This document shows positions 1-35,873 of a stretch of DNA of 64,000 nt, in pieces. This stretch comes from Pseudogymnoascus verrucosus. Taxonomy: Eukaryota. The stretch is from the NCBI GenBank assembly GCA_001662655.1, contig KV460209.1; one strand, 5' to 3'. The position numbers and the translations under genes are program-made. Numbering within the stretch: the stretch's first letter is position 1; every line of letters begins with the position of its first letter. A model generated the notes under the pieces. That model made no database searches and was not told the origin of the DNA. It worked only from the letters and a program-made list of their open reading frames with translations.

Positions 1-2371
1 GGGCAAGCAACAGCCTCACAATCGCCTCATGGCCTTTTCCAGCAGCGAAATATAGAGATGTCACCCTTAGGCCAGTAAGCTTTGACGATGGGTCGACACC
101 ATCTGTTGCAAGTAGCAACTTTACAACCGCTTCGTGCCCATTCTCAGCTGCGTAAGAAAGCGGTGTTCGCTCGTTGCTATCCTTTGCATCTGGACTCTGC
201 CTGCCAACTAAAAACTGCACAGCTTTCTCGAGCCCAAAGTATGCCGCTAAATGTAGCCCCGTCATTTTTCGTGGTTGGTGAAGCCTAACTATGGCTATTT
301 GGGTTATTACTCCATATAGTTGTGATTGACTCGCGGCCTCAACCTGATCTTGTTTGTCGAGGAAAGTGGCAACTTCTGGGATAAGTGTCGAATCCTCGCG
401 AGCATGGAGCCCCCAATTATGTGCCGCGTAGCTGTAGAGCACATTATCCTCCTCCCGTTGTTGTAGTTGCTTGTCTTCTAGCCAAATTCCACTCCCAAAC
501 TGTTCAAATGAGAGATATGTGCAGCATATTGCTGCCATATTGGTCTCTATTTGAGGAAACCATTTCCCTTGCGTCCGCTTGAAGTATTGCTGTGCTGTGT
601 AGTGGACTAACCGGATGATACCGCTCTCTTCATCGATTGTAACCAACCCGGCGCATACAGAGACCATGTCTTCGACTGGACATATATTATCTTCGTCAAA
701 TTCAAACGATTCTCGCTCGATAGCAAGTGCGACCTCAAGTTGAGATGTGGTAAGAGGTGTCTTTGCGCAAGTGATCCAATAGATAACCTGCACGGCAAGC
801 TCCCTTTCGTCACTAATCTGACCTTCAATTCTCTCCATGGCATCCTCGTACGCCTTGTCATATGTCTCATCGTACGCTTGAAACCCGCTCGGCAAGTCTT
901 CTAAAGCTTTCCGAATAGCCTTTGGTGACTTTTTGCCTTTTATCGCATCAAGGTAGAGCTTTGCAAGTAGGAACCTAGATGTAGATTAGAGTTATTTCTC
1001 CAGTATATGAGCATAACATACATTCCATCAACAGCATTCGCAATCCTCTTCTTTATCTCATCCTGTAGGTCTGGGCTCTGACGTACACACCTAGGGAGAC
1101 CTTGGATATGACCGTCGATGTATCTGCGTACATCGTCCGGGTGTGCAACGATCTCTCTCTGAATAGCATCCGTAAACCTTTCCCTGATTTCAGGGATAAA
1201 TCTCGACGTCGCAAATATGTTTATGCGTGTTTTACACTCAGCCTGGAGATTAAGGATGGCTTCCAAGAATTTTGTTCGGCCACTGTCGGATACTTGACAC
1301 TCATCTAGGGCGTCGACGATAATGAAGACCCTCGAATATATGGTTGTAGCCACCAACCTAAGACTGCTTAAAATTTCGGCAAAAGACATCTGCTTCTTTT
1401 CCCACTTATAGCGATTATAGAGGGTCTGCACATTATTCGGGATAGAACGCTGGCGTTGAATTAGCTGCTTCAGCAGGCTCGCTAGGAGCTCTTCGGCCCT
1501 CTGCTCGTGTTGCCGCCGGAAGTTACAATAAAGGTACGCAACGCCAATGCTCTTGTCATCCTGGAAGCGATTATTCAGCTCGTCAATTGCGACAGAGGTG
1601 AGTATCGTTTTCCCAGCTCCAGGCATACCAGGGCAAAACAATGTCTTGCTAGTCTCTACCCACTCTTTGAACTCGGGGGATTCCAAAAGCCACTTTCCAG
1701 TTCCTACATGCCGCCGATTAATAAAGTCGTTATGCTGAGGTCCATAGTTGAGTGGGGTAATCCAGTCAAGAACAACATCATGTTCTTTATGCCGTTCTTG
1801 ACTGTCTTGCCGCACATGCAACTGATCCAAGCTGGCTAGTATCCCTACAGATATTTGACTAAGATTTTTTAGTCAACTGCTCATCTTCAGAGGATATACT
1901 TAATTACCTGTCAAATTTCCCTTGAAATGCGTTCCAGAGGGTAACATTCACGATAATACGACTTCGAAGCTCCTTTATATCGTCCGGTTCCCATTTAAGT
2001 CTATTCCAGATTCTTTTCGCTCTGCTCCCGGCACCTGCATAGCCCGACTTTAGCTCACTGTACTTGTCCAGCGTTCTTTTCAGCTCACTAAGAACGTCAC
2101 AGCAGCTATTGGTGATTTCCCTCAGTTCCTTCGCCTGTTTCTCATCGAGATCCGGTCCAGACAGTCGATCTTCAACATCTTGAAGCACGATAGAAAGACT
2201 TCTCGCCCTACATAACCCGAATAGTTAGCCATGGCTAAAGAATTGTTGGGATGTTACACACTCGTCAGAGATGGCCTTAAATTGACTTGGCGCATTGACG
2301 AATTCCTTTCGGATTCTGTTGGCAAGCTCGACCGCTGCAATAATGTCGCCTACGCTGAAACCAAAGCTCAT
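1..2371 (-). CDS. Fungal NLR: N-terminal HeLo-like/SesA-type domain + NACHT + ankyrin repeats (multi-exon, 3' end beyond window)
   Basis: Starts MSFGFSVGDIIAAVELANRIRKEF (ATG 2371). Walker A GMPGAGKT, YLYCNFRR and Walker B FIIVDALDE. Downstream IIRLVHYTAQQYF, GLHLAAYFG and RTPLSYAAENGHEAVVKLLL ankyrin repeats stay open to position 1. Confidence 0.9.
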
Positions 2372-4006: not shown

Positions 4007-5037
4007 CTATTCAAAGCCGGAACTTATAACTAATCGGCGTGAATCTAATTTAAGGCATAACCTATTGTCTAATTTGACACCTTTACTAAAGAAACCTTGC
4101 CTTAATCCATCAAGGTACATCTCGTAGGCGGGCATATAGCCATCCACTAGGAATGTTAGTAACAGCACTGATAAGCCAAAATACTACAAGACCTACCAAA
4201 TTTCCGAACCTCGAGCTCCGTCATACCCAACCCACCCGTTCTTTGCCGGAGTTTCTGTTCCTGCTCTTCTCGCCACATGTAAATAGTTTCTAAGCTCTGA
4301 ACATCAAGATGAACCATGAAGTCAAGCATCGAGCTACTCATAAAACTATCACAGTAGTTTTTGAGTTCATCATCGAGCAGCAACACATCCTGCAACCGCG
4401 TAGAAGCAAGTTTTTTATCTGTTCCTTGAGCGTCTCTCCATATGTTCTTGACCTCGGTGTGGCCTAAGGGTTGGAATCCTATACACCAACCTTCGAATAT
4501 TATCACGTCTAGCGCAGGGTGACTATCCGTCTTCTTCCAGTTCGCCTGGGTAACCCGGTCTCCCTTTCCGTTGAACAGGCTCTTGTCGAACGCTGGCCAG
4601 AATCATGCCCCGGATTTGCCATCGCCCACCATATCATCTGTCTCTGGACGGAATTGGCGAAAGAATGCCTTAGCTAGCTGGACATCATGTGTACCAAGTT
4701 GACCTCGTGTCCGCAGCAAAGAGTTTTCCGGGTTCGCTAGTATTATTCGTTTTTGCTCAGCATGAGTGTGGTATAAGTCGTCCAAGGAGATTTCTGCAAC
4801 ATCGAGATTATAACTTGTGGATAACTTGGTTACAAGTCGTGACGCTACTGTAGACTTTCCGGATCCCTGACATCCGGAGATTCCGACAATAATTGTATGG
4901 TTGCGTTGGTCTCTAGACGAACAAATATTTAGTGTGTGTTGTGCTTTTTGTTGTCTTTGCTCCGCTTTGAGCTGGAGAAGTCGAGGTACGAGGAACTCTA
5001 AAATGATATCCTCCGTATGATTCATAATGAACAGCAT
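4007..5037 (-). pseudogene. D-glycerate 3-kinase-like P-loop kinase (Tda10/GLYK family) interrupted by one in-frame TGA at 4603-4605
   Basis: Motifs IVGISGCQGSGKST, SLDDLY, LLRTRGQLGTHD, PAFDKSLFNGKGDR, IIFEGWC, WREEQE and a last exon DGYMPAYEMY. ORFs 4603-5037 and 4156-4506 are in the same frame, separated only by the TGA. Confidence 0.8.
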
Positions 5038-5711
5038 ACATAAAGAATAATCTCTAATCCTCTGCGTTACTATACCTTTATATGAGCTTAACGTACTGCG
5101 TGAGAAAGTTGCAATTAAAAGCTTGAAGCCCCTTAAGCCCTTTCACGGCTAATAGATCAACCGACGGCTAAATTAGTGGTTATACTCTCGGCCACGGCCA
5201 ACAATAAATTTGCATGGAGGTAGTATTTAATGCTAGATGATCTAAAGTGAGAATGCAGTGACAGAAGCAGGCCTCAATGAGAGAAATCATTATTTAACAT
5301 GGGCGTATGTATATTCCATCTCTGCTGCTTCGTTTATCGATACATAGCATCCACCAGCCCCCTTCGTCTTGATGGACGTCTCCATTAAGAATACATAGGT
5401 GTTATCCATGCGCATACCACAAACTAAATATGTTGGTTTACTATTATATTGTCTGTTCTACACTCAACCGATATGAGTGCCTAGATATGAACGCCGGGAA
5501 AGCCTTGAAGTTGAGACATTCTAGCAACTTAAACTAGTTCGGCAACAATGTCATAATTCGAAATAGCTAAAAGGGCATCATGGTACATTGACCTTTAATT
5601 GTAAAAAATAAAGAATAGAAGTATTCCATTAAATTAAAAGGGGTTTCTTTGCATGATGGTTCTTGGTATCGTCGTAAACTCAATTCGCATTATTCTAGAA
5701 TGGCAGTGCTA

Positions 5712-6793
5712 TTACCAAAACAAGTCTTCTTCCTGTTGTCTTGACAAGTCCGAATTGCTCCATGGATCGATTGTACTTGGCCCAACAGATGAATTCAAAG
5801 GACTAGATTTGTGAGATGGCAGAACTGGTAACACTTCTTTTCTGGTAAGAACATCTGCACTGTTAGGGATAGCTTCCGCAGGGCCTCCAATCGATGTATT
5901 AGAAGGATCAGCCGTTGCAGTCGTCGTGTTGTTATGTGGATCGGCCATTGTAGCCGTTTTATCGTCGTGAGTCGGTCGTATCGCGTCACGATTTTGAGGC
6001 TGATAGTCGAACGTATCCGGCATGGATTGGAGCATTTGAGGGTTTCCAACTTCCCATGATCCTTGCTCAAACGGGGTGCCTAGATCCATCTCATCTGGAA
6101 CTGGAGAATCCTGTCGAACTTTGCGAGGTGTGGAGGACGTCACGCCCGCAGTATCGTAGTCTACCTGCCACCTACGAACTTCAGCAACAGTGCTTAGAGG
6201 GGCGTCGTCCCAGACTGATTTCCTTGGCCCGAACGATGCTAGTTGAGCAGTCAAAAGATCATTATCTTTTGATGAAGATGCTGCTTCTCTTTGTCTTTGC
6301 GCGGATGGGCGTAACTCCATTCCGTCGGCAAGTAGTTCATCGGGGATTACACGGAGAAGGCCCACAAGAAGGTCTTCTGTCTCCTCTAGTCGTCTCTGAA
6401 TCATCTTCTTCTCCTCTTTCACTGGACCCCTACGTGATATGAGCATCATTGCATAAATGTTGCAAAGGGTTGAAATATTGGCCGTACCTTCTCTTTTGGT
6501 CCGTCCATGTGCAATTTCTCCCTGAGGTGCGACATTGGCGGCAAATGGGCCTTTCCCACCACAACTCAATAATCAGCGCCAATTCTTATTTTCTACGGAA
6601 GAGTATATAATGGTAACAGGAGGAACAAAACTAGTTACACACTTTTCTCCGCTACACTGTACAGGTATAAGCATGAAGTAGAATCAGACTAATTTTGCTA
6701 GTGAGATCTTACCTTTTGTCGTCTGTTGTGGCAGTCGATGCAGGCGACAGAGATGCGGTGTTGCCGAGGCTTCTGAGTGGATTCGGATGCCAT
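5712..6793 (-). CDS. Zn(II)2Cys6 transcription factor with DNA-binding domain and coiled coil, no middle homology region
   Basis: Spliced N-terminus MASESTQKPRQHRISVA-CIDC-HNRRQK-C-SGEKPI-CRQC-RTSGRN-C fits CX2CX6CX6CX2CX6C. It is followed by a heptad segment (IQRRLEETEDLLVGLL) and a disordered tail ending EEDLFW. Confidence 0.85.
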
Positions 6794-7014
6794 CGATTAA
6801 TCCCTTAGCAGTCTTTGGAAGTGAGTCTGTGGGAAAGGTAGATCGATCGCTAGAAAACGCAGGAGATAAAGAGGGTAAAAGTTTAAGGGTATATTAGTGC
6901 CTCTGCCTACTTATCTCGGCTAATCTTTTAACCTCAACCATGTCTGGATGTGTCCCACGCTGGCCCATCCCAGCCAACCTCATCAGAACGTCCGCCTAAT
7001 CACCAATTGCTGGC

Positions 7015-9217
7015 ATGTCCGCAAGTTCGATTTTCAGCGCGCCCGAGATAGGATGTCTTACTGCAACCAAGCCGCAGGAGACCAGGTTCACCGGCAGCAG
7101 CAGTGGCGTTTTCTTTGTCAACACTGTGAAGCAAGCATTCGCTTCTCTCGCCCACGGTTCGCCACAGGCTCAGAATCTCCCTCCTAGCGAGGAGACGCTC
7201 GTCAGCATCGATGACAATAATGGTCGAACCACTTATCGAGCAGATGGCCATGGCCAGTATCATTCCTCGGGCGTGTCAGGGCTCGGCATCTTGCCGCCAC
7301 GAGACGTCGCGCAAAACCTAACTACGGAGTACTTCAGAGATTGGCATCCATTATTCCCCTTCCTCTCTGGACCAGACTTTCTTTCAGACCTCGGGGCAGT
7401 CTATGACGACCAAGAACGAGATCCAGCCAAAATGTCAGGTCCACAGCTATCCCGCTTCGTCATTGTACAAGGCGTTATCAACATCGCTGGGTCACAGTCA
7501 CCCGGCGTCCTACCAGTTGCTTGCCAATTCTCCGACCCTACGTCGTTGCTACAAGCATTGGCTCCCCTCGCGTTTCGCTACCAGACGAGTTCCATCCAAG
7601 CGTACTTAGTGGTGCAACTTTATCTCACTTTGAACATGTCATTGAGGCATGCTGCATCCATAGGCGGATTTTTGTGGCGGTCTTTAGCCCAATGCGGTCT
7701 CCACAGATGTCCGTTTCGATATGGACAACTCGAGCCTCAAGACCAGATTATGCGCCAGCGTATCTTCTGGAGCGCTTACGTACTAGATCGCTACCTTAGT
7801 CAAGCAATTGGAATTCCTCTTGGTATTTCTGATTCGGATGTTGATGTGTGTATCCCTACAAGGATAGAGTTGCATGGTTCGGCTGGAACATCTCAACATC
7901 ACTTAAATGGCGGTTCTAGCCATGACCCTAATGTCTCATCTACCGACGCAAATACAGCAGAGGATGGAATATTTGTCGCTAAGGAGCAGACTAAAGACCA
8001 GTTACCGTTCCAGAAGGAAGAGATCCTTGCGAACTTTGTTGAATATGGCCGACTGCTTGGCCGCATCGTTGAAACATTTCACAAGTCAATACACGTCCGA
8101 GGCTGGGACAACCAATCCGTCCTCGTCCTTCGTTCTGATGTGGATCGTTGGTTTAATAACCTGCCAGATGCTTTGCAAACTTCCAGAATGCATAGCAACC
8201 CAATGGCACCCGGTCTCGTAGCTATTAAGGCTCGTTTCGGCCCATTCTTTTTGATTCTTTATCAACAACTAATTATCTTACTCAATCGACCAAGTCTTTC
8301 TGTTAGAGACCACAGCGGCGAATTCCAGACCGCTTTACAATCTTCTATATCAGCTGCCTGCCTCACAATATCTGCAGTCCAGACTGAAGATCGACTTCTA
8401 TGGTCTGGATATCTATCTTCGGTGTGGATGTCTGCTCTAATCATTACCTTCGCTTGCCAGCTAGGATTATACAACCGTAACAAGAGCATTCGGTAAGCTA
8501 TGCGTGTTTGATCGTCTGTTCGCTTTTTCACTTTCTCGTTCAGGGGTCGTGTACTTTCTCTGTTTCTCTGCCCATTATGTGCATTTCAATCTCCGTAAAC
8601 GGTCTGGCTAAGGCATTTTTTTAGTGGAATTCAGACATGCTTGACCATCCTGCAAGGGATGGCTCCACGTTGGCCTACAGCTCAACACTGCTCTGAAACC
8701 TTAACAGCCCTGCTCAAGGGTTTAATTACCTCGAAATCCGGAAATTCCATGCATCCGCCAGGAATGAGCAATTATATGCCCTCTCGAATTATTTCAACGC
8801 AAGACACGCCAGCATTTAAAAGAACAAGGCTTGCTATGCAAGATGAGGGTTCTGACAGACTCACAAACTCTCTGGTAGGGTGACTCGTCGACAAGATTGC
8901 TTTCACATAACATTAGCAATGACTATTACTAACTGATACAGGAGACACAAAACAACGTGGCCGACAATAATATATCGTACCTAAGCAGACAAGCCACGGG
9001 TTCGGAGAGCGTGCGGCACGTCAACCGCTTTGCTGGACCGAACGGAAGACACCAGAATGAACTTATGTATGATTCGCAGCTTATGAATGCATTTAATGGA
9101 GTTTCTCGAGGCACACTTCCACATGATCACGGAATTGTTCAAAATGGCCAGGAATATGATATTTTTAGCAGTATTAGCTGGGAAGCACTGTACGAACAAG
9201 ATATCGATCAGATTTAG
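7015..9217 (+). CDS. Fungal-specific transcription factor (Fungal_trans/MHR domain) with no visible Zn cluster
   Basis: Motifs RFTGSSSGVFF, YFRDWHPLFPFL, GLHRCP, RQRIFWSAYVLDRYLSQAIGIPLGISDSDVDV and an acidic C-terminal activation-like tail. Introns at about 8493-8624 and 8876-8941. Confidence 0.85.
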
Positions 9218-9320
9218 TACTATTAAATAAACAATCTAATTTATCAAAGGTTTAATTCATCTTATTTCCATGGCACTAGACCTGGTCGCTCCCGCCAAAC
9301 CAGTGAGCACATTCATGTGT

Positions 9321-10401
9321 CTAATTGCAGTGTTCGGGCACCGGTGTCAAGAGCTGTTCACCACTTATGGCTCTTCTTGCATTCTCCATCGCCATCCGTT
9401 CCATCTTCGCTAACGTCTCAGTCGTATGCGTGCCAAGATGGGGAACAAGAAGTGCCCGTTCGTTGGATATGAGCTTCTCATTCACGATAGGCTCCTTTTC
9501 ATACACGTCCAAACCGACACTAGTGATATGGCCGCTCTCTAACGCATCCGCCATGGCAGATTCGTCGATGATGGCACCGCGAGCCGTATTAACGATAACT
9601 ATTCCTTTCTTCATCTTGTCGATCTCGGGCTTGCTAATCAGGTGCTTCGTCGCAGCGAATAGAGGAACATGTACTGAGATGACATCGCTCGTGCTCAGAA
9701 GCTCATCGAAGCCTACATAAGTACCTTCTTCGGCCTCGGTCGTCGTAGGCTTTGTGCGAGTGTAATAGATGATATTCATCCCAAATGCCCTAGCTCTTTG
9801 AGCGACAGCTTTACCGATCCTGCCCATGCCTAAGATGCCTAAGGTCTTTCCTGATGGATCATTACCGAAACCGACGTCCTTCTTGAAATTCCCTTGGCGG
9901 AGTCTCAGCAAACCAGGGTTTAGCTGTCGTAGGGCTCCTAAAAGAAGGAAGATGGTGAGATCTGCAGTGGCTTCTGTAACAGGATCAGGTGCATAGGTCA
10001 GGGTGATACCTCGAGCCTTGCATGCTGCGGTGTCGATTTGATCATAGCCCGCACCATTGTGACATATGGTTAGAAGAGAGTCTGGAAGGCGGTCAATGAA
10101 GGCCTTATCGAAGTTGCCAGCGACCTGTGCATCAGTCAGTTTAAGCTGATATCATGCAATATTAATAAGCAAAATGAATAAGAGCGAACAATAGACGTGA
10201 ATTTTTGCATACTGCTCCACTAGCCGATGTGCGATAAATGACCTGTGCACTTTGATATTTCGTACTAAGGTCCTGGAAAAACTCTTCTCGGGATTTACTT
10301 GTAACCGTCTGTGTGTCCGCTACCTTTCCCAGTGCCTGATAGTCGGCAAGAGCGTGGCGAACAGGGTTAAAAAAGAGGATTAAAGGACGTGGTTGCACCA
10401 T
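9321..10401 (-). CDS. D-isomer-specific 2-hydroxyacid dehydrogenase (glyoxylate/hydroxypyruvate reductase-like)
   Basis: Motifs ICHNGAGYDQID, VTEATADL, GKTLGILGMGRIG, VNTARG, GLDVYEKEP and PHLGTHT; one intron at about 10126-10210. Confidence 0.9.
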
Positions 10402-11116
10402 TTTGGGATTTAGTGGAATATGTGTGTGGTTGGTAAAACTACTCGGCACATATATTTTCTTAGAAAGAGATATAGCAATTGTGGTTTAACATTTCCGTTC
10501 TTATATTCCCCTAGGCAGTTCTCCGGTTGTTCACGAGGATGGGACAGGTCTGGGTAGGATGTGTGAGGCGTGCACTCGAATCATAGTTGAGGCTAAAAGT
10601 ATAGCCACCCCAAAAACACTAACCAAGAAAATTACATGAGGTATATTAGATGTACAATTCGTCATGTACGGATCCAGAGCGATATCTGTAGAAATAGAAC
10701 GTGTCTTTATGTATTAGGGCAGAGATAGTACATCGTTAGCATCATTAAAATATATCTGTGTTCTAAGTATCTGAATGCATTTCAAAACTGGAAGGTGGTT
10801 GGTTCTATGGTCTTTTCGCAAAGACGAATAAATGAGGATTAGTAGCATGAAACCTGTACGTATGATCGCTTGTACTGTGCCATGTAATAGTTTAGCTTCC
10901 TTGATTAGAAAAGATACCCATAAGATACGTAATAATTCATAATTCACTTCAAGATATGTACGATTATCGATTTTAACGGACAAGTTTTTGATAACTCTAC
11001 ACCCAAAACCAGTCCTAGAGCCGTCGCAAAGTGGCCGAGATAACACCCACGTAGGTTGTCATGCCAAGAAATACTCATGAACAGATATATTAATTTCTAT
11101 ATATAGTATCTAGAAC

Positions 11117-12334
11117 CTACGAGCTGCAAAATGCAATGCCCTTCTGGATATTACCCTTTAACTCCGCTATTGCGGTAGCTAGCAAGGTCTCTTCATGTTT
11201 AGAGATTTCGCTAACAGACAGTGCCTTCTCTGCTCCAGAAACGCCAAACTCAACTGGCACCGCAAAGTAGTCTACACCAAGTGACTTGGCTATTTTGTCT
11301 CCGCCTGGAATGCCAGGTAGGTACAGATAGCATTCCTCCTTAATGCCCTTCTCCCCCGAAGCAGCCTTTAGGATAGACTGAACGAACCTAGGTGAAATCT
11401 GGTTAACTTTACATCTGACGAAGGAATCACTTAGGAGAGACATACCTAAATCCTGCATATGCCATGCAAGTGGTGGCTGACCCTGCACCGGCCTTGGCCT
11501 TGACGATCTCATCGCCGCCAAATTGGACGCCTTTGCTATATGTTAGATTGTAGATTCATGTGTCATGTGTATTGGTACTTACGGTAGGTGATTGCATCTC
11601 TTTGATCATCAGTCAGTTTGACTAGAGGGTTGGCCTGGCTTAGCAGAGGCAAAATGGTTGCACCGCTGTGACCTCCCACCACGGGGATTCTCAGGGACTT
11701 AGGGTCTGAGATCTGGAGTGCCTGAGCTGTGAAAGTAGACGCCCTCACAACGTCGAGGGTAGTAACACCGAATACCTTCTTGGGGTCATAGACGTTGTGT
11801 TTCTTTAGCGTCTCAACGGCAATTGGTAAAGTGCTGTTGACAGGGTTTGTGATTATGAGAACAAATGCCTTGGGGCACACCTTAGCAATCTCAGTTACAA
11901 GATCACGAATGACAGAAGCGTTCGTCTCGAAGAGTTCTAGGGCACAATTGTTAGGTAAGAGGCCTCTATCATAAGACTTATGGCGAGATTCTCACGGTCA
12001 CGCGTCATGCCTGGCTTGCGAGCAATGCCGGCAGGTATCACGACAAGATCTGCGCCAGTCAATGCCTTACGAAGACCATCGTCTGCTGCGAGAAAACCAT
12101 TGACGGGCGCGGGGGTGTCGATGTGGTTAAGATCTATGGCGACACCAGGGGCGTGCACAATGTCGTAGAGAGACAATGCGGACACTAATGGGCTCTATTG
12201 ATACCATCATATGTGAGAAGAGTTCCACTTTGTAGTGTATAATTTGGTTAGGTGTTTAGGCTTACAGTCTTTAGAAGCAGACTTAGTGGTTGGCCAATCT
12301 GGCCGGCGGCCCCTAGAACAGAAACTTTATGCAT
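11117..12334 (-). CDS. NAD-dependent malate dehydrogenase paralog (divergent)
   Basis: Motifs [58 protein letters not shown] and [19 protein letters not shown]; about 5 exons. Confidence 0.9.
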
Positions 12335-12785
12335 TTTAAGGTTTGATATTCTTAATGCCGAGATAATCAGTGTAGTGCGTGCTGCAAGTCAATGCTTAAT
12401 TACTCGGCGAGGAAAACAGCCGGAAGGTGTGTTTTATAGATTCGCCAGCCGTCCAATTCGGTTGATATTTGTGCCTAAACCATTATCCTCCCTGTGTTAG
12501 CCACGATTCTTAGTCTAACTAATCTGTCCGGGCGAGACTCAGCCAGCTGCTGACTGTGTCGTCTTGCCCAGCCTCCTGTCACACAGATTGGGAAAGATCA
12601 AAGTTCTAAGGGAATCCGGGGAATATGCGGGGAAGTAGTGGGTTGCGAATCTATTCCCCGGATTTCAGTATTACCCCCTGTACTTGAAACCCTTATAAGT
12701 CCACTAAGTCCATTCGTAATCCATTGTAATTTCCGACTATTGCCCTTCAGAAGCCTCGTTGTTCATTTCCATCTTCATCTTCATC

Positions 12786-14667
12786 ATGACCTCCAAAGTC
12801 GATATTGAGCCAAACGCTCACCACCTTGAGTCCGTGGACATGGCTGAAAAGGATACCAACACCCCTCGAGATTACGCCGGTGCTGTTCTTACACGAACCC
12901 CAGCAGAGACCAAACTTGTGAAGAAGTTGGACTATCGAATCATGGCATGTTTGCATAATGAAATGGCAACGACACGCCAGCTAATATTACCAGCCAATCT
13001 TGTGGCTCATGTTCTGGTTGAACTACCTCGACCGTAATGCCATCGCCATTGCAAGACTCAACTCACTTGAAAGTGACCTGAATCTCAAAGACTCCGGTAC
13101 GTCTACTCCTTAAATTATGTCGTTGTCGTAGAAACTGCTAATATGTTCTTGTTCGTAGAGTACCAAACTTGCGTGTCGATCCTTTTCGTCGGATACATCT
13201 TCGGAGGCATTCCCTCTAACATGTTGATTACTCGTGTCAGACCCTCTATTTATATGGTAAGGCAATTCGTACACATCCCTTCAAAAAGTATTGACTCGTG
13301 ATTAGGGCAGCGTCATGGCGGTCTGGGCAATCGTGTCTGCCTTAACGGCAGTCGCGAATAACTACATTGGCCTTCTTCTTGTTCGATTCTTCTTGGGCAT
13401 TACCGAGGCACCTTACTATCCGTAAGAATCCATCTGGGGACCATGAAAAGCTGAGGCTAATGTAAAGTACAGTGGCGCACTCTACCTTCTGTCCATTTTC
13501 TACAGTAAGTGCTCCATGTCCCATCCATTCTTTCTTGTACATGAAGTAACGTTAGTGTGATTAGCCCGTAAGGAAGTTGCAACCAGAATGGCCGTACTCT
13601 ACACCGGAAATATTATAGCGACGGCGTTTGCTGGCCTTATCGGCGCTGGTGTGTTCCATGGCATGGATGGTCTAGCCGGTCTCGCTGGATGGCGGTATGT
13701 TTCACCATTTAAGGGATATCATTATTATACTGACTTTAGATAAAGATGGCTCTTCATTCTTCAGGGTGCGGTTACATTTGTTGTCGCCGTTGGGGGAATC
13801 TTCCTCTTGCCCGATGACCCTTCAGTTACTAAGTGGCTAACTCCAGAGGAAAGGGTCATTGCAGTGCACCGGATTCATCAGGACACTGTTGGCGAAACTG
13901 GGGAAGCTACTAGTTTTGGCGGTTTTAAAGGACGCCTTAAAGGATCGCAGAGTTTGGCTGTTCGTTTTCATCCAGCACATGCATCTCGCAGCCAACGGTT
14001 TCAAGAACTTCGTAAGCTATTCCCATTGACACCATTTTTCGCACTAGTGAACTAACACATTACTTTCAGTTCCCAACTGTTGTTGAAACCCTCGGCTTCG
14101 ATACCACCATCACCTTGGTTTTGACATGCCCTCCATACCTTATCGCAGGAGCAATTAGCGTATACTGGTCATGGTCTTCCGGAAAGTACAACGAGCGGAC
14201 ATGGCACATTACAATCGCCAAAGGTGTTGCAATCCTCGGCTTCGTTCTGGGCTGCGCTACTCTCAATATGGGCGCCCGATACTTCGCTATGATAGTTTTC
14301 TCTGTGGGCACATATGCCGTTAACAGCATCGTGCTTGGATGGGTTAGTTCCACATTCGGTCAGACAAAGGAGAAAAGGGCCGTTGCCATTTCTATAGTGG
14401 TTAGCACTAGCAACATCAGCTTCATTTGGACTCCGGTATGTACTCTATTCTCTGTTATTCGAATGCGCCTCGTCCAAATGCTAACATTACTTTTAGTATC
14501 TTTGGCCAAAGAGCGACGGCCCACAATACGTCACGGCACTTGCTTCCTCGGCAGCGTTTTCGTTTGCGACCCTTGCGGGTGCCTGGGCGATGAAGTTTAT
14601 TCTCATGAGACAGAATAAGAAGATTAGACAGCGAGAGGGTGATGCGACTCTCTTCTTTGCCTATTAG
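12786..14667 (+). pseudogene. MFS anion:cation symporter (Tna1/Dal5/TtuB-like carboxylate permease) with an apparent frameshift at about 13910-13930
   Basis: Motifs LVKKLDYRIM, WLNYLDRNAIA, RFFLGITEAPYYP, GLAGWRWLFILQG and HMHLAANGFKNF. The reading frame shifts inside an exon between GEATS and LKDALKDRRVWLF. Confidence 0.75.
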
Positions 14668-15287
14668 CTAATTAAACCCCATTAGTCTCTATCTATTGCC
14701 TCAAGCCTTTGCGCCCATCATTACTAGGTGCGAAGATTACATAGTTATAGTACCACAAACAATCACTTAGTTTAGCGGTCTTCTGTCTTGGGTTGTTTGT
14801 AATTAGAAGGGTGTATTTGCAAAAGATACGCATCGCTGTATATACCAAGCATCAACACGACGGGCTGTAATTTATCTTCGACGTACGCCTCGTCGCTCAT
14901 GTGAAGCGCATCATAGTCTTTAGTCAAATCGCCTAACACAGCTCTCACAGCGTGTATGGATGCAACCCTGCCTTCGTTACGGCATTCAGCTTCGTAGAAT
15001 CTCTAGATGATTAATACAAACGGGCCTTCATTGCCTCAGTGGTTCAAACCAGCAAGCCGACCTCGATACCATTATATCTAGAGAATAACTCAGGTTAGCT
15101 CTATAAGAGACAGGTATCACAATGCTAAGTCGGTCGGTCGGAACTTTCTAGCTCGTAATTGCTAGCCACAAGGAGAATTTTAGTTGAAGATAAAAAAATT
15201 ATAAATTGTTCAAGGCTGATACTTAAAAATAAAAATAATCTAAATCTACGCTATGCAGCCCCTCTTCATGGGTTTCTTATCTACTAC

Positions 15288-16422
15288 TTATTTGTTCTCC
15301 TTGATGTCCTCGCAAATAGCCGCCGTCACCTCTTTGGTGTTATACTGTCCTCCTAGATCAGCTGTCACAACGCCTTTCGAGCATACTCTCTCTACTGAAG
15401 CCATAAGAATGTCAGCTGCCTCGGCCTCTCCTATCCACTTCAGCAACTCCGCTGCCGACCAGATAGCCGCGACAGGGTTCGCAACACCCTTGCCAGTAAT
15501 GTCAAAGGCAGATCCATGCACAGGTTCGAAGATGCTAGGGTTCTTCCTTGTAGGATCTAGGTTGCTTGAAGGAGCAATACCGATAGAACCAGCCAAGGCA
15601 GCTGCGAGATCTGAAATAATATCCATGTGTAGGTTCGTGCCTAGGACGGTATCGAGAGAATGAGGGTTCGTAACCATGCGTACAGTCATTGCGTCAACCA
15701 ACATTTTATCCCATATAACGTCAGGGAAATCTTTGGAGACCTCGGCGGCAATCTCATCCCAAAGAACCATACCATTGCGCATGGAGTTCGACTTGGTAAC
15801 AACCGTGAGTAACTTGGCCGGACGCGAACGAGCCATCTCAAATGCAAATTTCATGATGCGCTCAATGCCCACGCGCGTGAAGATGGCGACTTCGGTGGCT
15901 GTCTCCCATGGCTGACGAAGATGCGAGCGTCCACCTTGTCCAGCGTACTCACCCTCTGAGTTCTCGCGAACGATCATCCAATCGATTGGCTTTGTCATGG
16001 ATGTTAAGTAGGCTCTTGTGCCAGGAAAGGACCTGACAGGCCGTACGTTGGCATATAACTGCATAGGACCTCGCATAGCAAGCAGTAATCCCCATAGTGA
16101 TATGTGGTCGGGTACATCTGTAATAGCCTGTTAGAAACAAGTGGACGGAAGTAATGGACAACGGATGTGTACCTGGTGCTCCAACGGAACCGAAAAGGAT
16201 AGCATCATACTGTTTCAGTGACTCTACACCACCTTCAGGGATATATCTGCCATGTTTCTTGTAGTGATCGCTACCCCAAGTAAGATCCGTAAACTCGAGA
16301 CTAAATGTCTTGAGAGTGTCTGTCAAGACTTTCAGCACGTCAACTGCTGCACTGATGACCTCCGGTCCGATACCATCGGCTGGTATGCAGGCGATTTGAT
16401 AGTTCTTGCTTTTATTAGTCAT
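15288..16422 (-). CDS. Tartrate dehydrogenase/decarboxylase (D-malate dehydrogenase; TtuC/DmlA family)
   Basis: Motifs IACIPADGIGPEV, PDHISLWGLLL, QLYANVRP, IVRENSEGEYAGQGGR, VTKSNSMRNGMVLWDE, LVDAM, TNLHMDIISDLAAALAGSIG and FEPVHGSAFDI. HISLWGL and TKSN are typical of the TDH branch rather than IPMDH. Confidence 0.88.
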
Positions 16423-17313
16423 GTTAAGTCGATACCAAGTAATATGTGCTGAGCTGGGGCTAGAAGGCATAGGATAATGGATTCAACGACAACTATTGTG
16501 GCGCGGATTTAGCATAACTTGTCAAACAGGGTGAAGGCTATATAATTTAAAGTTGAACTCTAGAAGTAGCCTCTGTTTCGTAAATCAGTGCGGCCGAAAG
16601 ATTAGCAGCGTTACTACATAATCCTGTGTGGTCTTCAAGGTTATTTGTTTAACCGCCTCACGTGGGAGTGTCATTTTCCAAGTCGGACTTTGTGGATGGT
16701 ACCATTAGCTTGTGTTAAAAGTTTAACCGACTTCGGAGCCTAATCTTATCGAATGTAGAACTTCTACGAGACTAGTTAAAATATAAAAACGATGGTTAAT
16801 TGCATACATAAGAAACGGTAGAGCTAGTAAGAATAGAATCCTTGTATAGCTCAAAGTTGGGAAACGTCGATTAAAAAATCCAATCCTGAAGCTCTGGTAA
16901 TAATAATAAAAACTAACGAAAAACGGCACTGGTTTTTAGTTCCATGGTACCCTCGCCGCCCTGATCCCATGTCTACGCCCATTAGTCTTGATGTTCTAAT
17001 GCGGGGGTGCGACTTAGGAGTCTGGGCTTTTCAACCTGAGTATCGGCGGAACCCCGCGAGCAGCGGCGATCATCCCGCCTGCTGCTTCGGGCGTTGCGGG
17101 TAGGGGTGACTGAAATAGCATATAGCACCGTTGGCGGTTGACTAGGCGCCTTAGTGTTTGACCGTGAACTTTGTTATGATCTAATCTGGGTATAAGACTC
17201 ACCTTGCGTACATAAATGGGCTTCGGGTAATCATAAGCCCATTCCCACATCATTACGTATAGTTTTTGTAATGGAGCATGGCCCCTCCCACTATGCCATT
17301 CTGAAGTACATTT

Positions 17314-17883
17314 CTATGATGTCTTCTTCGTGGCCCTGGTTCGGATTTTCATCATCAGAAACACGAGCGCATAAGATCTCACACAAAACAGGGCAGCAAT
17401 GGCAACTTAGTAGACGAATCAGTAAGGGATCATAACCTTATGAGGTAACTTTTGACATATGCGGACAGCTTACTCCTCTCCAACCGTAACTAGGGCCGTT
17501 GATGTTGATAGTCTTCAGGTAATCTCCCCCCACCTTATAGGGACAGTAATCACAAGAAGTAGTGTTACCAGGGTCTACCACGTAACCGCTATTCTCTGAT
17601 AGAAAATCCGCCATATACTCGCCACAGGATGTAGAGGGTAGAAGTAGAACATTAGTCAGTTCGCTCAGCTTACAGTGTATCTCAAGGTCCCAAACCACAG
17701 GCTGCAACAAGCCTTGGATCAGGTAGGTAAATGGGTTGAGGTAGTAAAGCCAATACCTCCAGAACGCCTTGATCTGGGAGTAAGGAACCACTACCCCTAA
17801 AAAATTGATGAGTACAGCACCAATCACTATTGGATTAGCTAAGGCGCTGAAATACGCATCAGGACTACACACAGCAATTGCCT
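17314..17883 (-). pseudogene. 3' fragment of a PDR-type ABC transporter
   Basis: AIAVCSPDAYFSALANP...FWRYWLYYLNPFTYL...TCGEYMADFL...CDYCPY...YGWR...LVFLMMKIRT; no upstream NBD or TMD present. Confidence 0.8.
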
Positions 17884-18015
17884 ACGGCGAGGGAGAATCG
17901 CCGCCGGGACCAGGCCGCCTGTTCTGCAGACCCAGCACAGGTCGACGCTGCAACGATGGCCAACTTGATGGATCTTACAGATAAGGAAATTCCCCAGTTT
18001 AGATATATCTACTAA
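17884..18015 (+). pseudogene. 3' fragment (last ~43 codons) of an allantoate/ACS-family MFS permease
   Basis: Translates ARENRRRDQAACSADPAQVDAATMANLMDLTDKEIPQFRYIY*, which matches the ENxRRD...DLTDxE.pxFRYxY C-terminal signature of the family. Confidence 0.7.
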
Positions 18016-18755
18016 ATATAATTTTGGGATTGCACCATTGGCAATATAGAGCGGGATATTGCCAATGGTGCTAGTTTGCCACTAGGTGTATTAAGATTGA
18101 AGTATTATGGGGTGTCAGACTAGTCTATGCGATAAATCATATGTCTTATTGCTTAACTCATATGTAAATGGTGATAATAGGGAGAGGGAGGGGCTGGTTA
18201 CTATGTTCGACGGGTGAGTGAATACTATATTTGTTCTTGGTGACTTACCTACGGATTTAAACTAATGATTTTCATAGAGTTTGGAATAACGATAAAATCA
18301 AGACCGAAAATCCAGTGAGGGTCATGTAGGAGAGCCATACAGGAAGAGGGGCGGTTTGGGAGCTTAGGATGATTATTCGAGCTGAGAAGCGGTGTTGGAT
18401 TAATAACCTGGCGAGCGATGTGTATAGTGGGGTCGCCTGGATTGTTTCGAGAATCAAAAAATACGATAGCAATATGATACGTTACATCTTGTTTCTATGA
18501 GCATTCATTCCTAAGCTGTCTTCACCTGTATGTACCTGTACAAGTTTTTTGATCCGTCCGCAAGCGTCAATGGCCCACCCCTCATATTGTGTTTCTCAAG
18601 TACAATTGTGTAGATCCGTAAGCGATCCGTATCATGGAGGATGATCAATATGAGGGACTTCGCACGGTGCGGAGACACAACCGAGGCTGACGCTAAAGCT
18701 GCAGATAAAAGCGTCAGGAGGAAACATGCCGCCACTAACGGACGGCCTAGTGTTT

Positions 18756-19299
18756 GCGGGGGTTGAGAGCGGAGCCGGAGCTTCATTCCCCGCGGGTTGC
18801 GGGGTGTGAATAGGGGCCAGTAGTTTCCCAAGTGGAGAAATCTAACATGGAGACAAAAGTATTCAAGCTGATACCCGCCCATTCGGCCCATTCGGCCCCT
18901 GACAGAGAAGTTGTTTCGCGTTGCAATCATATAGAATCCGTAATTTATTACTACATCGTCTAGATTTGAGGGGTGTGGGGTTGGGGTGGGAGCAGGGGCC
19001 TGGAGCTTCCCCGCGTGGAGAAGCCCTAAGTTGAGGCAAGATCATCGACGATCCAAGCCGATTCGATGAGAGCTGCTCGGACCGGTACGGAACGAATTGT
19101 TAATTTACGCTAGAGTTAGGGTTTATGACAGTGCATCCCGCTCTGAGATCCGCTCTAGGGTACAACATTAGCACTTCACACGCATAGTAAGGTATTTTAT
19201 TAGTGCCCGCCTCGCTGAACCCCAACCTTGAGAGCATATATCGCGGGGATAGGCTTCCCGGAGACAGGCTTCCCCGCTATGTTTATTTTCAATGCGGGG
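18756..19299. promoter_or_regulatory. Cluster of CreA/Mig1-type SYGGRG sites upstream of the GH43 gene
   Basis: GCGGGG/CCCCGC at 18756, 18788, 18799, 19009, 19243, 19272 and 19294, plus GTGGGG/CTGGAG/GTGGAG variants. Confidence 0.45.
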
Positions 19300-19576
19300 G
19301 TGCTAAGCCCATTGAAGTCTAAGGCTGTTGGTAAAACACAAGAATATTACACTCGCACGAATAAAACTTCACCAACAAATAATTTTCGGGTCCACATGCG
19401 GCGTCGAATTGTCGTTGAATTGTCTAGCGTAGGTAAAGTCCAAAGATATGCAAAAATTAGCGAATGTTCCATTTCCTTCAAACATATATATATATGTGGA
19501 AGAATCTACGTAAGTGATGGCATCTTCCAACATCATCTTCCAACATCATCGCAGTTATTCATTGAAATTCCCCAAG

Positions 19577-27864: not shown

Positions 27865-28029
27865 AGCAAGTCTCGAGCAAGAGCAACTTTCAGAAAAAAG
27901 GTAGAAAAGTAAATTACGGAAGGCGCTTAAGGTAGGAAAACACAGCCGGAGGAAAGAAATAGGGAACTTTACGAACTGGAGTTAAGGAGAATACGGTTAC
28001 TTATACGTACCGACAAGAACATGCTGATC

Positions 28030-35771: not shown

Positions 35772-35807
35772 ATGGCGCGCCTCTACCCATCCAATCTCGC
35801 CATCTAA
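35772..35807 (+). other. Candidate upstream ORF (MARLYPSNLAI*) 66 nt before the FNIP-like start
   Basis: ATG in strong context (ACAATGG), 11 codons, TAA at 35805-35807; main ATG at 35874. Confidence 0.4.
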
Positions 35808-35873
35808 TCACCCCCTCGCCAAACCTTCACACCACCCTACCCACCCACGCGCGCGCGCGTGCCCACCGCCATC

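What the first reader, a model, noticed from the sequence alone, without database searches (positions are those of the whole stretch)
4007..16422. Candidate fungal tartrate (and D-malate) catabolic gene cluster, a eukaryotic analogue of the bacterial ttu operon
Seen: seven contiguous genes in 12.4 kb, namely a glycerate-kinase-like P-loop kinase, two TFs, a hydroxypyruvate/glyoxylate reductase, an extra MDH, an ACS-family MFS permease and a tartrate dehydrogenase/decarboxylase. Known: TDH oxidises L-tartrate to oxaloglycolate, decarboxylates meso-tartrate to D-glycerate and converts D-malate to pyruvate. Oxaloglycolate decarboxylates to hydroxypyruvate, which HPR reduces to D-glycerate, and plant-type GLYK (homologous to yeast Tda10) makes 3-phosphoglycerate. 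Agrobacterium vitis ttuABCDE groups a regulator, MFS permease, TDH and glycerate-processing enzyme in the same way. Inference: a self-contained route from uptake through tartrate and glycerate into glycolysis, built from fungal genes. I know of no characterised fungal cluster of this kind, but have not searched.
Basis: partly seen in the sequence, partly recalled or inferred. Interest (0 to 1): 0.88.

Follow-up and report, generated by a model that had tools for sequence, protein, structure and literature searches.

The report
Candidate fungal tartrate-breakdown gene cluster
Seven neighbouring genes of a soil fungus, five of which also sit together in other fungi, probably break down tartaric or D-malic acid, an ability whose fungal genes I found described in no paper; two of the seven are broken in this strain.

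Summary
Window 4007-16422 (Pseudogymnoascus verrucosus, by a 100% match to VE01_01638) carries seven intron-bearing genes. They are a class-III glycerate-kinase paralogue, a small Zn2Cys6 protein (TF1), a Fungal_trans-only protein (TF2), a glyoxylate/hydroxypyruvate-reductase-type dehydrogenase, an extra malate dehydrogenase, an ACS-like MFS permease and a tartrate dehydrogenase (TIGR02089, 476.6 bits against a cut-off of 470.4).

TDH lies beside the MDH in four other fungal lineages from metagenomes, beside TF1/TF2 and the reductase there, and beside a TF2 orthologue in two Aspergillus species. It lies three accession numbers from the MFS in two Paraphoma loci.

The conserved core is therefore TDH+MDH+TF1/TF2+reductase. 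The MFS is unlinked in 10 of 11 other species compared, and the kinase was seen linked only in Pseudogymnoascus.

In this strain the kinase has an in-frame TGA (relatives have Leu) and the MFS has a 1-base insertion. Both lesions stand in an independent assembly of the probable source run's reads.

Only TDH and the MFS are homologous to bacterial ttu genes, so this is an analogue, not a member. The substrate is inferred, with no expression or enzyme data. Ten paper searches found no characterised fungal cluster. A fold test supports binding of TF1's conserved C-terminal LFW to TF2.

The parts
4007..5025 (-). Class-III (GLYK/Tda10-type) glycerate-kinase paralogue. Exons 5025..4197 and 4146..4007, 322 codons, Walker A present, broken by an in-frame stop.
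   Evidence: Model. Solved relatives 6ckg, 7xpc and 1odf. Close relatives are few, and ordinary fungal GLYK is only about 43% identical.
4603..4605 (-). In-frame TGA in the kinase. Relatives at 96%, 95% and 75% identity have Leu at this position.
   Evidence: The TGA is present in X1 and X2 contigs. X3 and X4 read A for C at 4604, which gives TTA.
5712..6793 (-). TF1: small Zn2Cys6 protein, 297 aa, four exons including an 18-nt micro-exon. It has a coiled-coil-like stretch and a conserved C-terminal LFW, and no Fungal_trans domain.
   Evidence: Model. Zn_clus hit on exon 3. Homologues in L001 and L002 share the LFW end.
7015..9217 (+). TF2: 667-aa Fungal_trans (PF04082) protein without a zinc cluster, transcribed divergently from TF1.
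   Evidence: Model. Pfam. Orthologues lie next to TDH in L001-L003 (34-35% identity), A. pseudoustus (41%, 4e-90) and A. ellipticus (39%, 3e-104).
9321..10401 (-). D-2-hydroxyacid dehydrogenase of the glyoxylate/hydroxypyruvate-reductase type, 330 aa, one intron, intact.
   Evidence: Model. Pfam and NCBIfam. 3wnv at 3.6e-84. A 70%-identical fragment lies at the end of L002.
11117..12334 (-). Extra malate dehydrogenase (mitochondrial/glyoxysomal type, without presequence or PTS1), 325 aa, four introns, intact.
   Evidence: Model. TIGR01772 on three exons. Solved relatives. Other contigs of the same assemblies match a conserved 42-nt stretch, which points to paralogues elsewhere.
12786..14667 (+). 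ACS-like MFS permease, nine exons: 12786-12944, 12994-13096, 13159-13256, 13306-13421, 13473-13504, 13565-13694, 13746-14011, 14070-14435 and 14497-14667. The first intron is GC-AG. The gene is frameshifted in exon 7.
   Evidence: Coordinates read by hand. The intact orthologue P0242 is collinear. It is 28% identical to an Agrobacterium TtuB-like MFS.
13923..13926 (+). Run of four T where three related assemblies have three. This 1-nt insertion shifts the MFS frame.
   Evidence: 'Left out 1' at 13923 in X2, X3 and X4, but not in X1.
15288..16422 (-). Tartrate dehydrogenase/decarboxylase-family enzyme, 359 aa from the ATG at 16422, one 55-nt intron, intact.
   Evidence: Model, which agrees with annotated P0001. 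TIGR02089 at 476.6 against 470.4. 3flk. About 60% identical to plasmid-borne bacterial TDH.
6794..7014 (.). Divergent TF1/TF2 intergenic region of 221 nt. The same head-to-head arrangement occurs in L001 and L002.
12335..12785 (.). Divergent MDH/MFS intergenic region. In L001-L005 the MDH instead shares such a region with TDH.

Best explanation
This is a conserved fungal catabolic gene cluster built around a tartrate dehydrogenase/decarboxylase-family enzyme.

Conserved core: TDH, a dedicated malate-dehydrogenase paralogue, a glyoxylate/hydroxypyruvate-reductase-type D-2-hydroxyacid dehydrogenase, and a two-gene regulator. The regulator is TF1, which has a zinc-cluster DNA-binding part, and TF2, which has the Fungal_trans regulatory part. 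In Pseudogymnoascus an ACS-like MFS permease and a second class-III glycerate kinase have joined the core.

Most likely route (inferred):
1. A C4 hydroxy-dicarboxylate is taken up: L(+)- or meso-tartrate, or D-malate.
2. TDH oxidises L-tartrate to oxaloglycolate, or decarboxylates meso-tartrate to D-glycerate, or converts D-malate to pyruvate.
3. Oxaloglycolate, or the hydroxypyruvate it gives, is reduced to D-glycerate by the reductase.
4. Glycerate is phosphorylated to 3-phosphoglycerate.
5. The MDH paralogue probably handles the (S)-configured centres: L-malate, and possibly D(-)- or meso-tartrate.

Shown here: gene identities, integrity, conserved linkage, and a predicted TF1-TF2 interface. 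Inferred: substrate, order of steps, co-regulation.

In this strain the permease and the kinase are inactivated. The locus is therefore at best partly functional here, relying on other transporters and on an ordinary GLYK such as the roughly 43%-identical one seen in another strain of the genus.
For: Enzyme families:
- TDH passes the NCBIfam equivalog cut-off (476.6 against 470.4). Its best solved relative is P. putida TDH.
- Reductase: 3wnv glyoxylate reductase at 3.6e-84.
- Kinase: 6ckg and 7xpc D-glycerate 3-kinases.
- MDH: TIGR01772 on three exons.

Linkage in metagenome loci (one search fetched 13 TDH loci):
- 5 of 13 (L001-L005) carry the MDH head-to-head with TDH. These are four distinct lineages at 79-86% nucleotide identity.
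- 3 of 13 carry TF2, 2 of the distinct lineages carry a TF1-like gene, and 1 of 13 carries the reductase.

Linkage from annotated proteins:
- TDH and TF2 are merged into one gene model, so adjacent, in A. pseudoustus and A. ellipticus.
- TDH and the MFS are three accession numbers apart on the same contig in two Paraphoma chrysanthemicola loci.
- Locus tags place the kinase and the MFS 4 and 5 genes apart in two other Pseudogymnoascus strains.
- The whole stretch is collinear in contigs of three other runs.

Regulator pair: complex prediction scored TF1 with TF2 at 0.63, best of 3 controls 0.01. That mark was reached by 51 of 78 solved complexes and 2 of 108 mismatched pairs. Partner pLDDT was at least 42 and contact agreement at least 9%. 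The interface joins TF1's conserved C-terminal LFW to TF2 residues 100-123, of which 6 of the 12 named interface residues are invariant, against 87 of 492 overall.

Bacterial precedent: LysR-MFS-TDH-glycerate kinase-pyruvate kinase on an Agrobacterium plasmid.

Literature (passages read): Botrytis cinerea degrades L-tartrate and raises a TDH transcript in noble rot. Many yeasts assimilate L-tartrate (PMC7970118).
Against: No expression, enzyme or growth data. No RNA holder was listed.

The TDH family also contains D-malate dehydrogenases, so the name does not fix the substrate. TIGR02089 is passed by only 6 bits.

Of the 13 metagenome TDH loci, 8 show no other cluster gene. Two of these (L008, L010) are larger and look bacterial (only L008's neighbours were checked). 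Six are contigs of 3.6 kb or less, with at most 2.9 kb of flank.

The MFS is not next to TDH in 10 of 11 non-Pseudogymnoascus species compared by accession or locus tag. The MFS picked there may be a paralogue.

The kinase paralogue was seen linked only in Pseudogymnoascus. It is broken in all four assemblies laid: TGA in X1 and X2, a 1-nt insertion behind 4930 in X3 and X4. It is therefore dispensable.

No promoter word or CGG-spacer site is shared beyond chance.

A canonical MDH has no obvious place in the textbook tartrate route.
Confidence: 0.5

Rival explanations
1. This is a D-/L-malate locus, or a general 2-hydroxy-dicarboxylate locus, rather than a tartrate locus. The TDH-family enzyme works as a decarboxylating D-malate dehydrogenase, as E. 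coli DmlA does (recalled). The MDH takes L-malate. The reductase and kinase serve glyoxylate and glycerate side reactions.
For: It explains the conserved head-to-head TDH-MDH pair better than the classical tartrate route does. The TDH family includes D-malate enzymes (recalled knowledge). The kinase is dispensable and broken.
Against: It gives the conserved reductase and the recruited glycerate kinase no necessary role. TDH passes the tartrate-dehydrogenase equivalog model.
Confidence: 0.2
2. This is a cluster for another acid that ends in hydroxypyruvate, tartronate semialdehyde or glycerate. Candidates are a breakdown product of ascorbate, threonate or an aldaric acid, or a 3-substituted malate. 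The TDH-like enzyme would then act on a substrate not yet described.
For: Substrate specificity in the isocitrate/isopropylmalate dehydrogenase superfamily shifts easily. The fungal clade is only about 60% identical to characterised-type bacterial TDH. A different TDH-containing cluster exists in Cryptococcus (PMC8022950, passage read).
Against: No enzyme that would make such a substrate (dehydratase, aldolase, lactonase) lies in or next to the cluster.
Confidence: 0.2
3. The genes are chance neighbours in a variable genome region and share no function.
For: The flanks are accessory-type (an NLR-like gene, an ABC remnant). Two genes are decaying. No shared promoter motif was found.
Against: TDH is linked again with the MDH, TF1/TF2 and the reductase in lineages whose TF2 is only 34-41% identical. 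It is linked with the MFS in Paraphoma.
Confidence: 0.07
4. The TDH-like gene is an isopropylmalate-dehydrogenase paralogue of a secondary-metabolite pathway that makes homo-amino acids.
For: Such paralogues exist in fungal biosynthetic clusters (recalled).
Against: No isopropylmalate-synthase, aconitase-like, NRPS or PKS gene lies in 4007-16422. The leuB model scores 245 bits against 477 for the TDH model.
Confidence: 0.03

Closest known systems
Bacterial tartrate utilisation operon ttuABCDE (Agrobacterium/Allorhizobium vitis). A copy was seen here on an Agrobacterium tumefaciens pAt plasmid, locus L014.
   Same: A regulator, an ACS-family MFS permease, a TDH and a glycerate kinase are grouped. 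The fungal TDH is about 60% identical to such plasmid TDHs. The fungal MFS is 28% identical, 1e-41, to the neighbouring bacterial MFS.
   Different: The regulator is a Zn2Cys6/Fungal_trans pair, not a LysR protein. The kinase is class III, with no detectable similarity to the bacterial class-II kinase. There is no pyruvate kinase. The fungal cluster adds an MDH and a hydroxypyruvate/glyoxylate reductase. The genes are separate, intron-bearing transcription units.
Pseudomonas putida tartrate dehydrogenase/decarboxylase (PDB 3flk) and the classical tartrate-to-glycerate route through oxaloglycolate, with oxaloglycolate reductase (decarboxylating), EC 1.1.1.92 (route recalled).
   Same: It is the best solved relative of the window's TDH (4.9e-75). 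A hydroxypyruvate/glyoxylate-reducing D-2-hydroxyacid dehydrogenase is the enzyme type expected for the second step.
   Different: No fungal enzyme of this clade was found assayed in the papers searched. The fungal reductase's activity on oxaloglycolate is unknown.
Class-III glycerate 3-kinases (plant GLYK 7xpc, Cryptococcus 6ckg, yeast 1odf).
   Same: Homologous over both halves, with Walker A kept.
   Different: The cluster copy is a divergent paralogue, about 43% identical to ordinary fungal GLYK. It is a pseudogene here.
MGC-like cluster CNAG_04468-04473 of Cryptococcus neoformans (PMC8022950, figure legend read).
   Same: A putative TDH is grouped with an MFS and a Zn2Cys6 factor in a fungus.
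   Different: The other members are a GABA transaminase, a haloacid dehalogenase and an FAD oxidoreductase. There is no MDH, reductase or kinase. It is uncharacterised too.
Classical fungal catabolic clusters with their own permease and regulators, such as the quinate (qut/qa) clusters (recalled, not tested).
   Same: Enzymes, a permease and two regulatory genes lie side by side.
   Different: The chemistry differs. Here the two regulatory genes look like the two halves of one zinc-cluster factor.

Membership tests
Tartrate dehydrogenase/decarboxylase (NCBIfam TIGR02089 equivalog) | Whole-protein score at or above the curated cut-off of 470.4 bits | tested here: met
   P0001 scores 476.6 bits and the relative P0007 scores 497.3. 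The next model, NF006048, scores 391 against a cut-off of 501.
Tartrate dehydrogenase/decarboxylase | Closest solved structure is a TDH rather than an IPMDH or IDH | tested here: met
   3flk at 4.9e-75 against the best IPMDH, 1w0d, at 5.6e-57.
Tartrate dehydrogenase/decarboxylase | Oxidises L-tartrate, decarboxylates meso-tartrate, converts D-malate to pyruvate | not testable with these tools
   This needs an enzyme assay.
ttuABCDE-type tartrate operon | TDH (TtuC) homologue present | tested here: met
   About 60% identity to plasmid TDHs that sit in ttu-like operons.
ttuABCDE-type tartrate operon | TtuB-type MFS permease | tested here: inconclusive
   28% identity, 1e-41, to the L014 MFS. TIGR00893 scores 184 bits, below its cut-off of 395. 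The superfamily branch is the same, but orthology is not shown.
ttuABCDE-type tartrate operon | Class-II (MOFRL) glycerate kinase TtuD | tested here: not met
   No similarity between the cluster kinase relative P0121 and the L014 glycerate kinase (E 22). The fungal kinase is class III.
ttuABCDE-type tartrate operon | LysR regulator TtuA and pyruvate kinase TtuE | tested here: not met
   No LysR or pyruvate-kinase domain among the ORFs of 4007-16422.
Class-III glycerate 3-kinase (GLYK/Tda10) | Homology to solved GLYKs across the P-loop half and the substrate half | tested here: met
   6ckg at 6.4e-14 and 2.1e-12. 7xpc and 1odf also hit.
Class-III glycerate 3-kinase (GLYK/Tda10) | Uninterrupted reading frame | tested here: not met
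   TGA at 4603-4605 where relatives have Leu. It is confirmed in two assemblies.
Malate dehydrogenase, eukaryote/gammaproteobacterial type (TIGR01772) | Score at or above 273.05 bits, with the substrate arginines and the catalytic His/Asp | tested here: inconclusive
   Three of five exons give 77.1, 154.4 and 40.1 bits. The conserved Arg, Asp/Arg and His stretches are visible in the model and the alignment.
Glyoxylate/hydroxypyruvate reductase (D-isomer 2-hydroxyacid dehydrogenase) | 2-Hacid_dh and 2-Hacid_dh_C domains, with closest relatives that are glyoxylate/hydroxypyruvate reductases | tested here: met
   Pfam 9e-58 and 5.9e-18. 3wnv at 3.6e-84, followed by other glyoxylate/glycerate enzymes. 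The NCBIfam bacterial equivalog cut-offs are not reached.
Zn2Cys6 transcription factor | Six-cysteine binuclear cluster (PF00172) | tested here: inconclusive
   TF1 exon 3 alone gives Zn_clus 19.4 bits, E 0.0012, on profile positions 16-35. The first three cysteines lie in exon 1 and an 18-nt micro-exon of my own model. TF2 has no zinc cluster.
Fungal metabolic gene cluster | Linkage of the same genes conserved across distant species | tested here: met
   Conserved for TDH, MDH, TF1/TF2 and the reductase. Not conserved for the MFS (adjacent in 1 of 11 other species) or for the kinase.
Fungal metabolic gene cluster | Co-regulation by the substrate | not testable with these tools
   No RNA run was listed. 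The motif search was blank.

The most novel reading that the evidence does not exclude
Two linked novelties.

(1) The TDH and the dedicated MDH paralogue form a stereo-complementary pair. TDH acts on (R)-centres (L-tartrate, D-malate). The MDH acts on (S)-centres (D(-)- and meso-tartrate, L-malate). Together they would let fungi funnel every tartrate isomer through oxaloglycolate to glycerate. This would be the first genetic basis for the tartrate-assimilation traits long used in yeast taxonomy.

(2) The pathway is controlled by a zinc-cluster factor split into two genes. The DNA-binding half (TF1) would recruit the Fungal_trans half (TF2) through a C-terminal LFW peptide.
Probability: 0.15. 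Interest if true: 0.8.

Novelty: new variant of a known kind. Interest (0 to 1): 0.62.

Why it matters
Growth on L-, D- or meso-tartrate is a classical diagnostic trait of yeasts and moulds. Botrytis removes tartaric acid from grapes. Yet in the ten searches I could run, no paper named the fungal genes.

This locus and its conserved core give concrete candidates: an enzyme set, a regulator pair, and in some fungi a permease. These can be knocked out and assayed in tractable species. The A. niger TDH orthologue is An01g03030.

The work also shows that the full seven-gene version is lineage-specific and already decaying in Pseudogymnoascus. That is a useful caution for anyone choosing a strain.

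If the TF1-TF2 contact is real, it would be an example of a zinc-cluster regulator whose DNA-binding and regulatory parts are separate proteins.

Tried and rejected
- Whole genome: none is held, so paralogue counts and genome-wide searches were impossible.
- Earlier findings of the scan: nothing on this genome and nothing fungal.
- RNA evidence: no RNA holder was listed. All runs laid are contigs, so expression cannot be read.
- Promoter motifs: CGG-N12-CCG occurs 14 times in the window against 11.3 expected. CGG-N11-CCG occurs 17 times against 10.9, and none of these lies in a cluster promoter. No 7-9-mer is shared between at least 3 window promoters and at least 3 related intergenic regions. 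A CGG-N11-CCG site is kept in the MDH-TDH spacer of L002, L004 and L005, but these lineages are close.
- A lesion in TF1's zinc cluster: I first thought the third cysteine was lost. An 18-nt micro-exon restores it, and related assemblies show no indel there. The idea is withdrawn.
- An apparent in-frame stop in the GPR1/FUN34 gene at 27433 lies in an intron.
- L008 is bacterial and has no ttu-like neighbours. The neighbours of L010 were not examined.
- Long MFS proteins as hints of fusion: P0257 is only several MFS units. P0336 is a TF+MFS merge of unknown relation.
- Linkage of the kinase with TDH by accession numbers in Cadophora sp. and P. capsulatum: different contigs, but those kinases are the ordinary 40% type.
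- Blanco-Ulate 2015 (PMC4677888) is not held. Gene-id searches (An01g03030 and others) found nothing relevant. Supplementary tables of transcriptome papers were not searched and may hold expression data for these ids.
The coordinates were read by hand instead and are not machine-checked.

Full report
**Source and anatomy.**

The TDH exon is 100% identical to 'hypothetical protein VE01_01638 [Pseudogymnoascus verrucosus]' (P0001). The MFS exon is 100% identical to VE01_01637. The window is therefore from that Leotiomycete. No whole genome is held.

I built intron-aware models from three-frame readings and checked the splice sites.

| Gene | Strand | Exons | Size and state |
|---|---|---|---|
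| Kinase | - | 5025..4197, 4146..4007 | 322 codons, in-frame TGA |
| TF1 | - | 6793..6713, 6656..6639, 6564..6488, 6429..5712 | 297 aa |
| TF2 | + | 7015..8492, 8625..8874, 8942..9217 | 667 aa |
| Reductase | - | 10401..10213, 10124..9321 | 330 aa |
| MDH | - | 12334..12266, 12194..11996, 11936..11583, 11530..11446, 11387..11117 | 325 aa |
| MFS | + | nine exons, 12786-14667 | frameshifted in exon 7 |
| TDH | - | 16422..16173, 16117..15288 | 359 aa |

The MFS exons were read by hand. The TDH model agrees with the annotated protein. The finding's two end coordinates are exactly the kinase stop and the TDH start.

**Gene identities.**

- TDH scores 476.6 bits on TIGR02089 (cut-off 470.4), against 245 on leuB. 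Its best solved relative is P. putida tartrate dehydrogenase/decarboxylase 3flk.
- The kinase matches D-glycerate 3-kinases 6ckg and 7xpc and yeast 1odf in both halves.
- The reductase has both 2-hydroxyacid-dehydrogenase domains. It is closest to a glyoxylate reductase, 3wnv, at 3.6e-84.
- The MDH hits TIGR01772 on three exons and canonical MDH structures. It has no obvious presequence or C-terminal peroxisomal signal (read).
- The MFS belongs near the ACS family. The intact orthologue P0242 scores 184 bits on TIGR00893, below its cut-off.
- TF2 has only the Fungal_trans domain.
- TF1 has the zinc cluster. Exon 3 alone gives Zn_clus at E 0.0012, and the first three cysteines lie in exon 1 and an 18-nt micro-exon. 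It has no Fungal_trans domain.

**Lesions.**

*Kinase.* The kinase frame holds a TGA at 4603-4605. Relatives of 96%, 95% and 75% identity are collinear there and have Leu.

*MFS.* The MFS frame shifts in a run of four T at 13923-13926. The 99%-identical orthologue of Pseudogymnoascus sp. 24MN13 reads straight through. The annotated P. verrucosus protein P0241 is a garbled model around this place.

*Check against public runs.* Contigs of four public runs were laid on 4007-16422.
- X1 is the probable source, at depth 215. It is identical, so both lesions stand in an independent assembly of those reads.
- X2 comes from another study and shows 14 substitutions and 1 gap. It lacks the extra T but keeps the TGA.
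- X3 and X4 are about 97% identical. They read TTA (Leu) and lack the extra T. They carry a 1-nt insertion behind 4930, inside the kinase's N-terminal coding part.
- All other X3/X4 indels fall in introns or between genes.
- Annotated kinase models of two strains (P0124, P0401) omit the P-loop half, which fits such a break.

So the kinase is inactivated in two different ways within the genus. The MFS is broken only in this strain. Intact kinase ORFs exist in other assemblies (P0121, P0122).

**Is the grouping conserved?**

*Metagenome loci.* A scan of metagenome contigs with the TDH gave 13 loci.
- Five of them (L001-L005) carry the MDH paralogue head-to-head with TDH, at 64-82% identity. They represent four distinct lineages at 79-86% nucleotide identity (L002 equals L003).
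- L001, L002 and L003 carry a TF2 homologue at 34-35% identity.
- L001 and L002 also carry a small gene between TDH and TF2, divergent from TF2. It has a zinc cluster, the same coiled-coil-like stretch and the same C-terminal LFW as TF1.
- L002 ends in a reductase fragment that is 70% identical.
- L004 and L005 end just past TDH.
- The other eight loci show none of the cluster genes. L008 is bacterial, and L010, at similar identity, probably is too (its neighbours were not examined). Six are short contigs.
- No MFS or kinase is in any of the 13 loci.

*Annotated proteins.*
- TDH and a TF2 orthologue are merged into one gene model, so they are adjacent on one strand, in Aspergillus pseudoustus (41% identity, 4e-90) and A. 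ellipticus (39%, 3e-104).
- In Paraphoma chrysanthemicola, TDH and the MFS orthologue are three accession numbers apart on the same contig, at two loci.
- In two other Pseudogymnoascus strains, locus tags place the kinase and the MFS 4 and 5 genes apart.

*Species where TDH and the listed MFS are not neighbours.* These are A. terreus, A. wentii, A. calidoustus, A. mulundensis, Penicillium mononematosum, P. canescens, P. arizonense, Plectosphaerella plurivora, Bisporella sp. and Cadophora sp. DSE1049. That is 10 of 11 non-Pseudogymnoascus species. The MFS chosen there may be a paralogue.

*Conclusion.* The conserved core is TDH + MDH + TF1/TF2 + reductase. The permease and the second kinase are lineage-specific additions.

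**Regulator pair.**

TF1 and TF2 look like the two halves of one zinc-cluster factor, and they are kept head-to-head in three lineages.

A complex prediction gave 0.63, with the best of 3 controls at 0.01. That mark was reached by 51 of 78 solved complexes and 2 of 108 mismatched pairs. Partner pLDDT was at least 42 and contact agreement at least 9%. The tool's verdict was that the model supports binding but does not show it.

The confident contacts join TF1's last four residues, which include the invariant LFW, to TF2 residues 100-123 and 334. Six of these 12 residues are invariant among five TF2 homologues, against 87 of 492 overall.

The partner is largely disordered, and such peptide-type interfaces were not part of the tool's calibration. 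I take this as moderate support.

**Mechanism.**

From established knowledge of the families (recalled, not tested here), TDH does three things:
- it oxidises L(+)-tartrate to oxaloglycolate;
- it decarboxylates meso-tartrate to D-glycerate;
- it converts D-malate to pyruvate.

Oxaloglycolate, or the hydroxypyruvate it yields, is reduced to D-glycerate by an enzyme that also reduces hydroxypyruvate and glyoxylate (EC 1.1.1.92). Class-III kinases make 3-phosphoglycerate (PMC2063504, passages read). The conserved TDH-reductase linkage fits this route.

The MDH is not part of the textbook route, yet it is the most tightly linked partner of TDH. My inference is that it serves (S)-configured substrates: L-malate, and perhaps D(-)- or meso-tartrate. 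This rests only on stereochemical reasoning and on the recalled note that MDH accepts other 2-hydroxy-dicarboxylates.

**Comparison with what is known.**

An Agrobacterium plasmid shows the canonical order: LysR, MFS, TDH, glycerate kinase, pyruvate kinase.
- The fungal TDH is about 60% identical to such enzymes.
- The MFS is 28% identical.
- The kinase is unrelated.
- The regulators are of another family, and there is no pyruvate kinase.

The fungal locus therefore works like a ttu operon but is not a member of it.

*Literature.* Ten searches found no characterised fungal tartrate or D-malate cluster. What they found:
- a differently composed, uncharacterised TDH cluster in Cryptococcus (PMC8022950, legend read);
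- gene-family counts of TDH in plant pathogens (PMC3087541, passages read);
- a review stating that Botrytis degrades L-tartrate, that a Botrytis TDH transcript rises in noble rot, and that many yeasts assimilate L-tartrate (PMC7970118, passages read).

**Verdict.**

This is a real, conserved fungal metabolic cluster whose substrate is most likely tartrate and/or D-malate. I put that at about 0.5, and at about 0.9 that it is a functional cluster of some hydroxy-acid pathway.

The complete 'uptake to glycolysis' version is confined to Pseudogymnoascus as far as seen, and it is damaged in this strain.

It is a new variant of a known kind of system. Its interest is moderate to high, because it makes an old physiological trait genetically testable and because of the possible split regulator.

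Noticed in passing
window 5712-9217; L001 11354-13727; L002 11222-13831: A zinc-cluster-only gene and a Fungal_trans-only gene are kept head-to-head in three lineages. A fold test (0.63, best control 0.01) places the first protein's conserved C-terminal LFW on a conserved patch of the second. This may be a zinc-cluster regulator split into two proteins.
   Followed up: partly
window 12945-12993: The first intron of the MFS gene appears to be a GC-AG intron of 49 nt. It is the only in-frame solution that keeps the conserved residues of orthologues.
   Followed up: partly
window 6639-6656: An 18-nt micro-exon in TF1 supplies the third cysteine of the zinc cluster. This is my own model and is not confirmed by RNA.
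   Followed up: partly
window 14458-14843: Between the MFS and TDH, the contigs of two related assemblies (X3, X4) break at a short tandem repeat. This is a variable spacer.
   Followed up: no
window 2-2224 (-): An NLR-like gene (weak SesA-type N-terminal hit, NPHP3_N/NACHT, ankyrin repeats) flanks the cluster. Another ankyrin-repeat ORF lies at 22650-24275.
   Followed up: no
window 16500-22600: A gene-poor stretch holds only a C-terminal fragment of an ABC-2-type transporter (17438-17881, -). It is probably a gene remnant.
   Followed up: no
window 26989-27981 (-): A GPR1/FUN34/YaaH-family (acetate/carboxylate channel) gene lies about 10 kb from the cluster. Its apparent in-frame stop lies in an intron.
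   Followed up: partly
window 29092-31449 (-): A wyosine-synthesis radical-SAM/flavodoxin gene (TYW1-like).
   Followed up: no
window 35800-40000: A GC-rich block (about 0.60 GC against about 0.46 elsewhere) with strong GC skew and one 1292-aa open frame (35808-39686, +). Not examined.
   Followed up: no
P0001 versus plasmid records: The fungal TDH is 59-62% identical to alpha- and gammaproteobacterial plasmid TDHs, which is high for a cross-kingdom pair. An old gene transfer is possible but was not tested with a tree.
   Followed up: no
Paraphoma chrysanthemicola proteins: This species has two TDH-MFS loci on different contigs, each with two unidentified genes between the pair.
   Followed up: no
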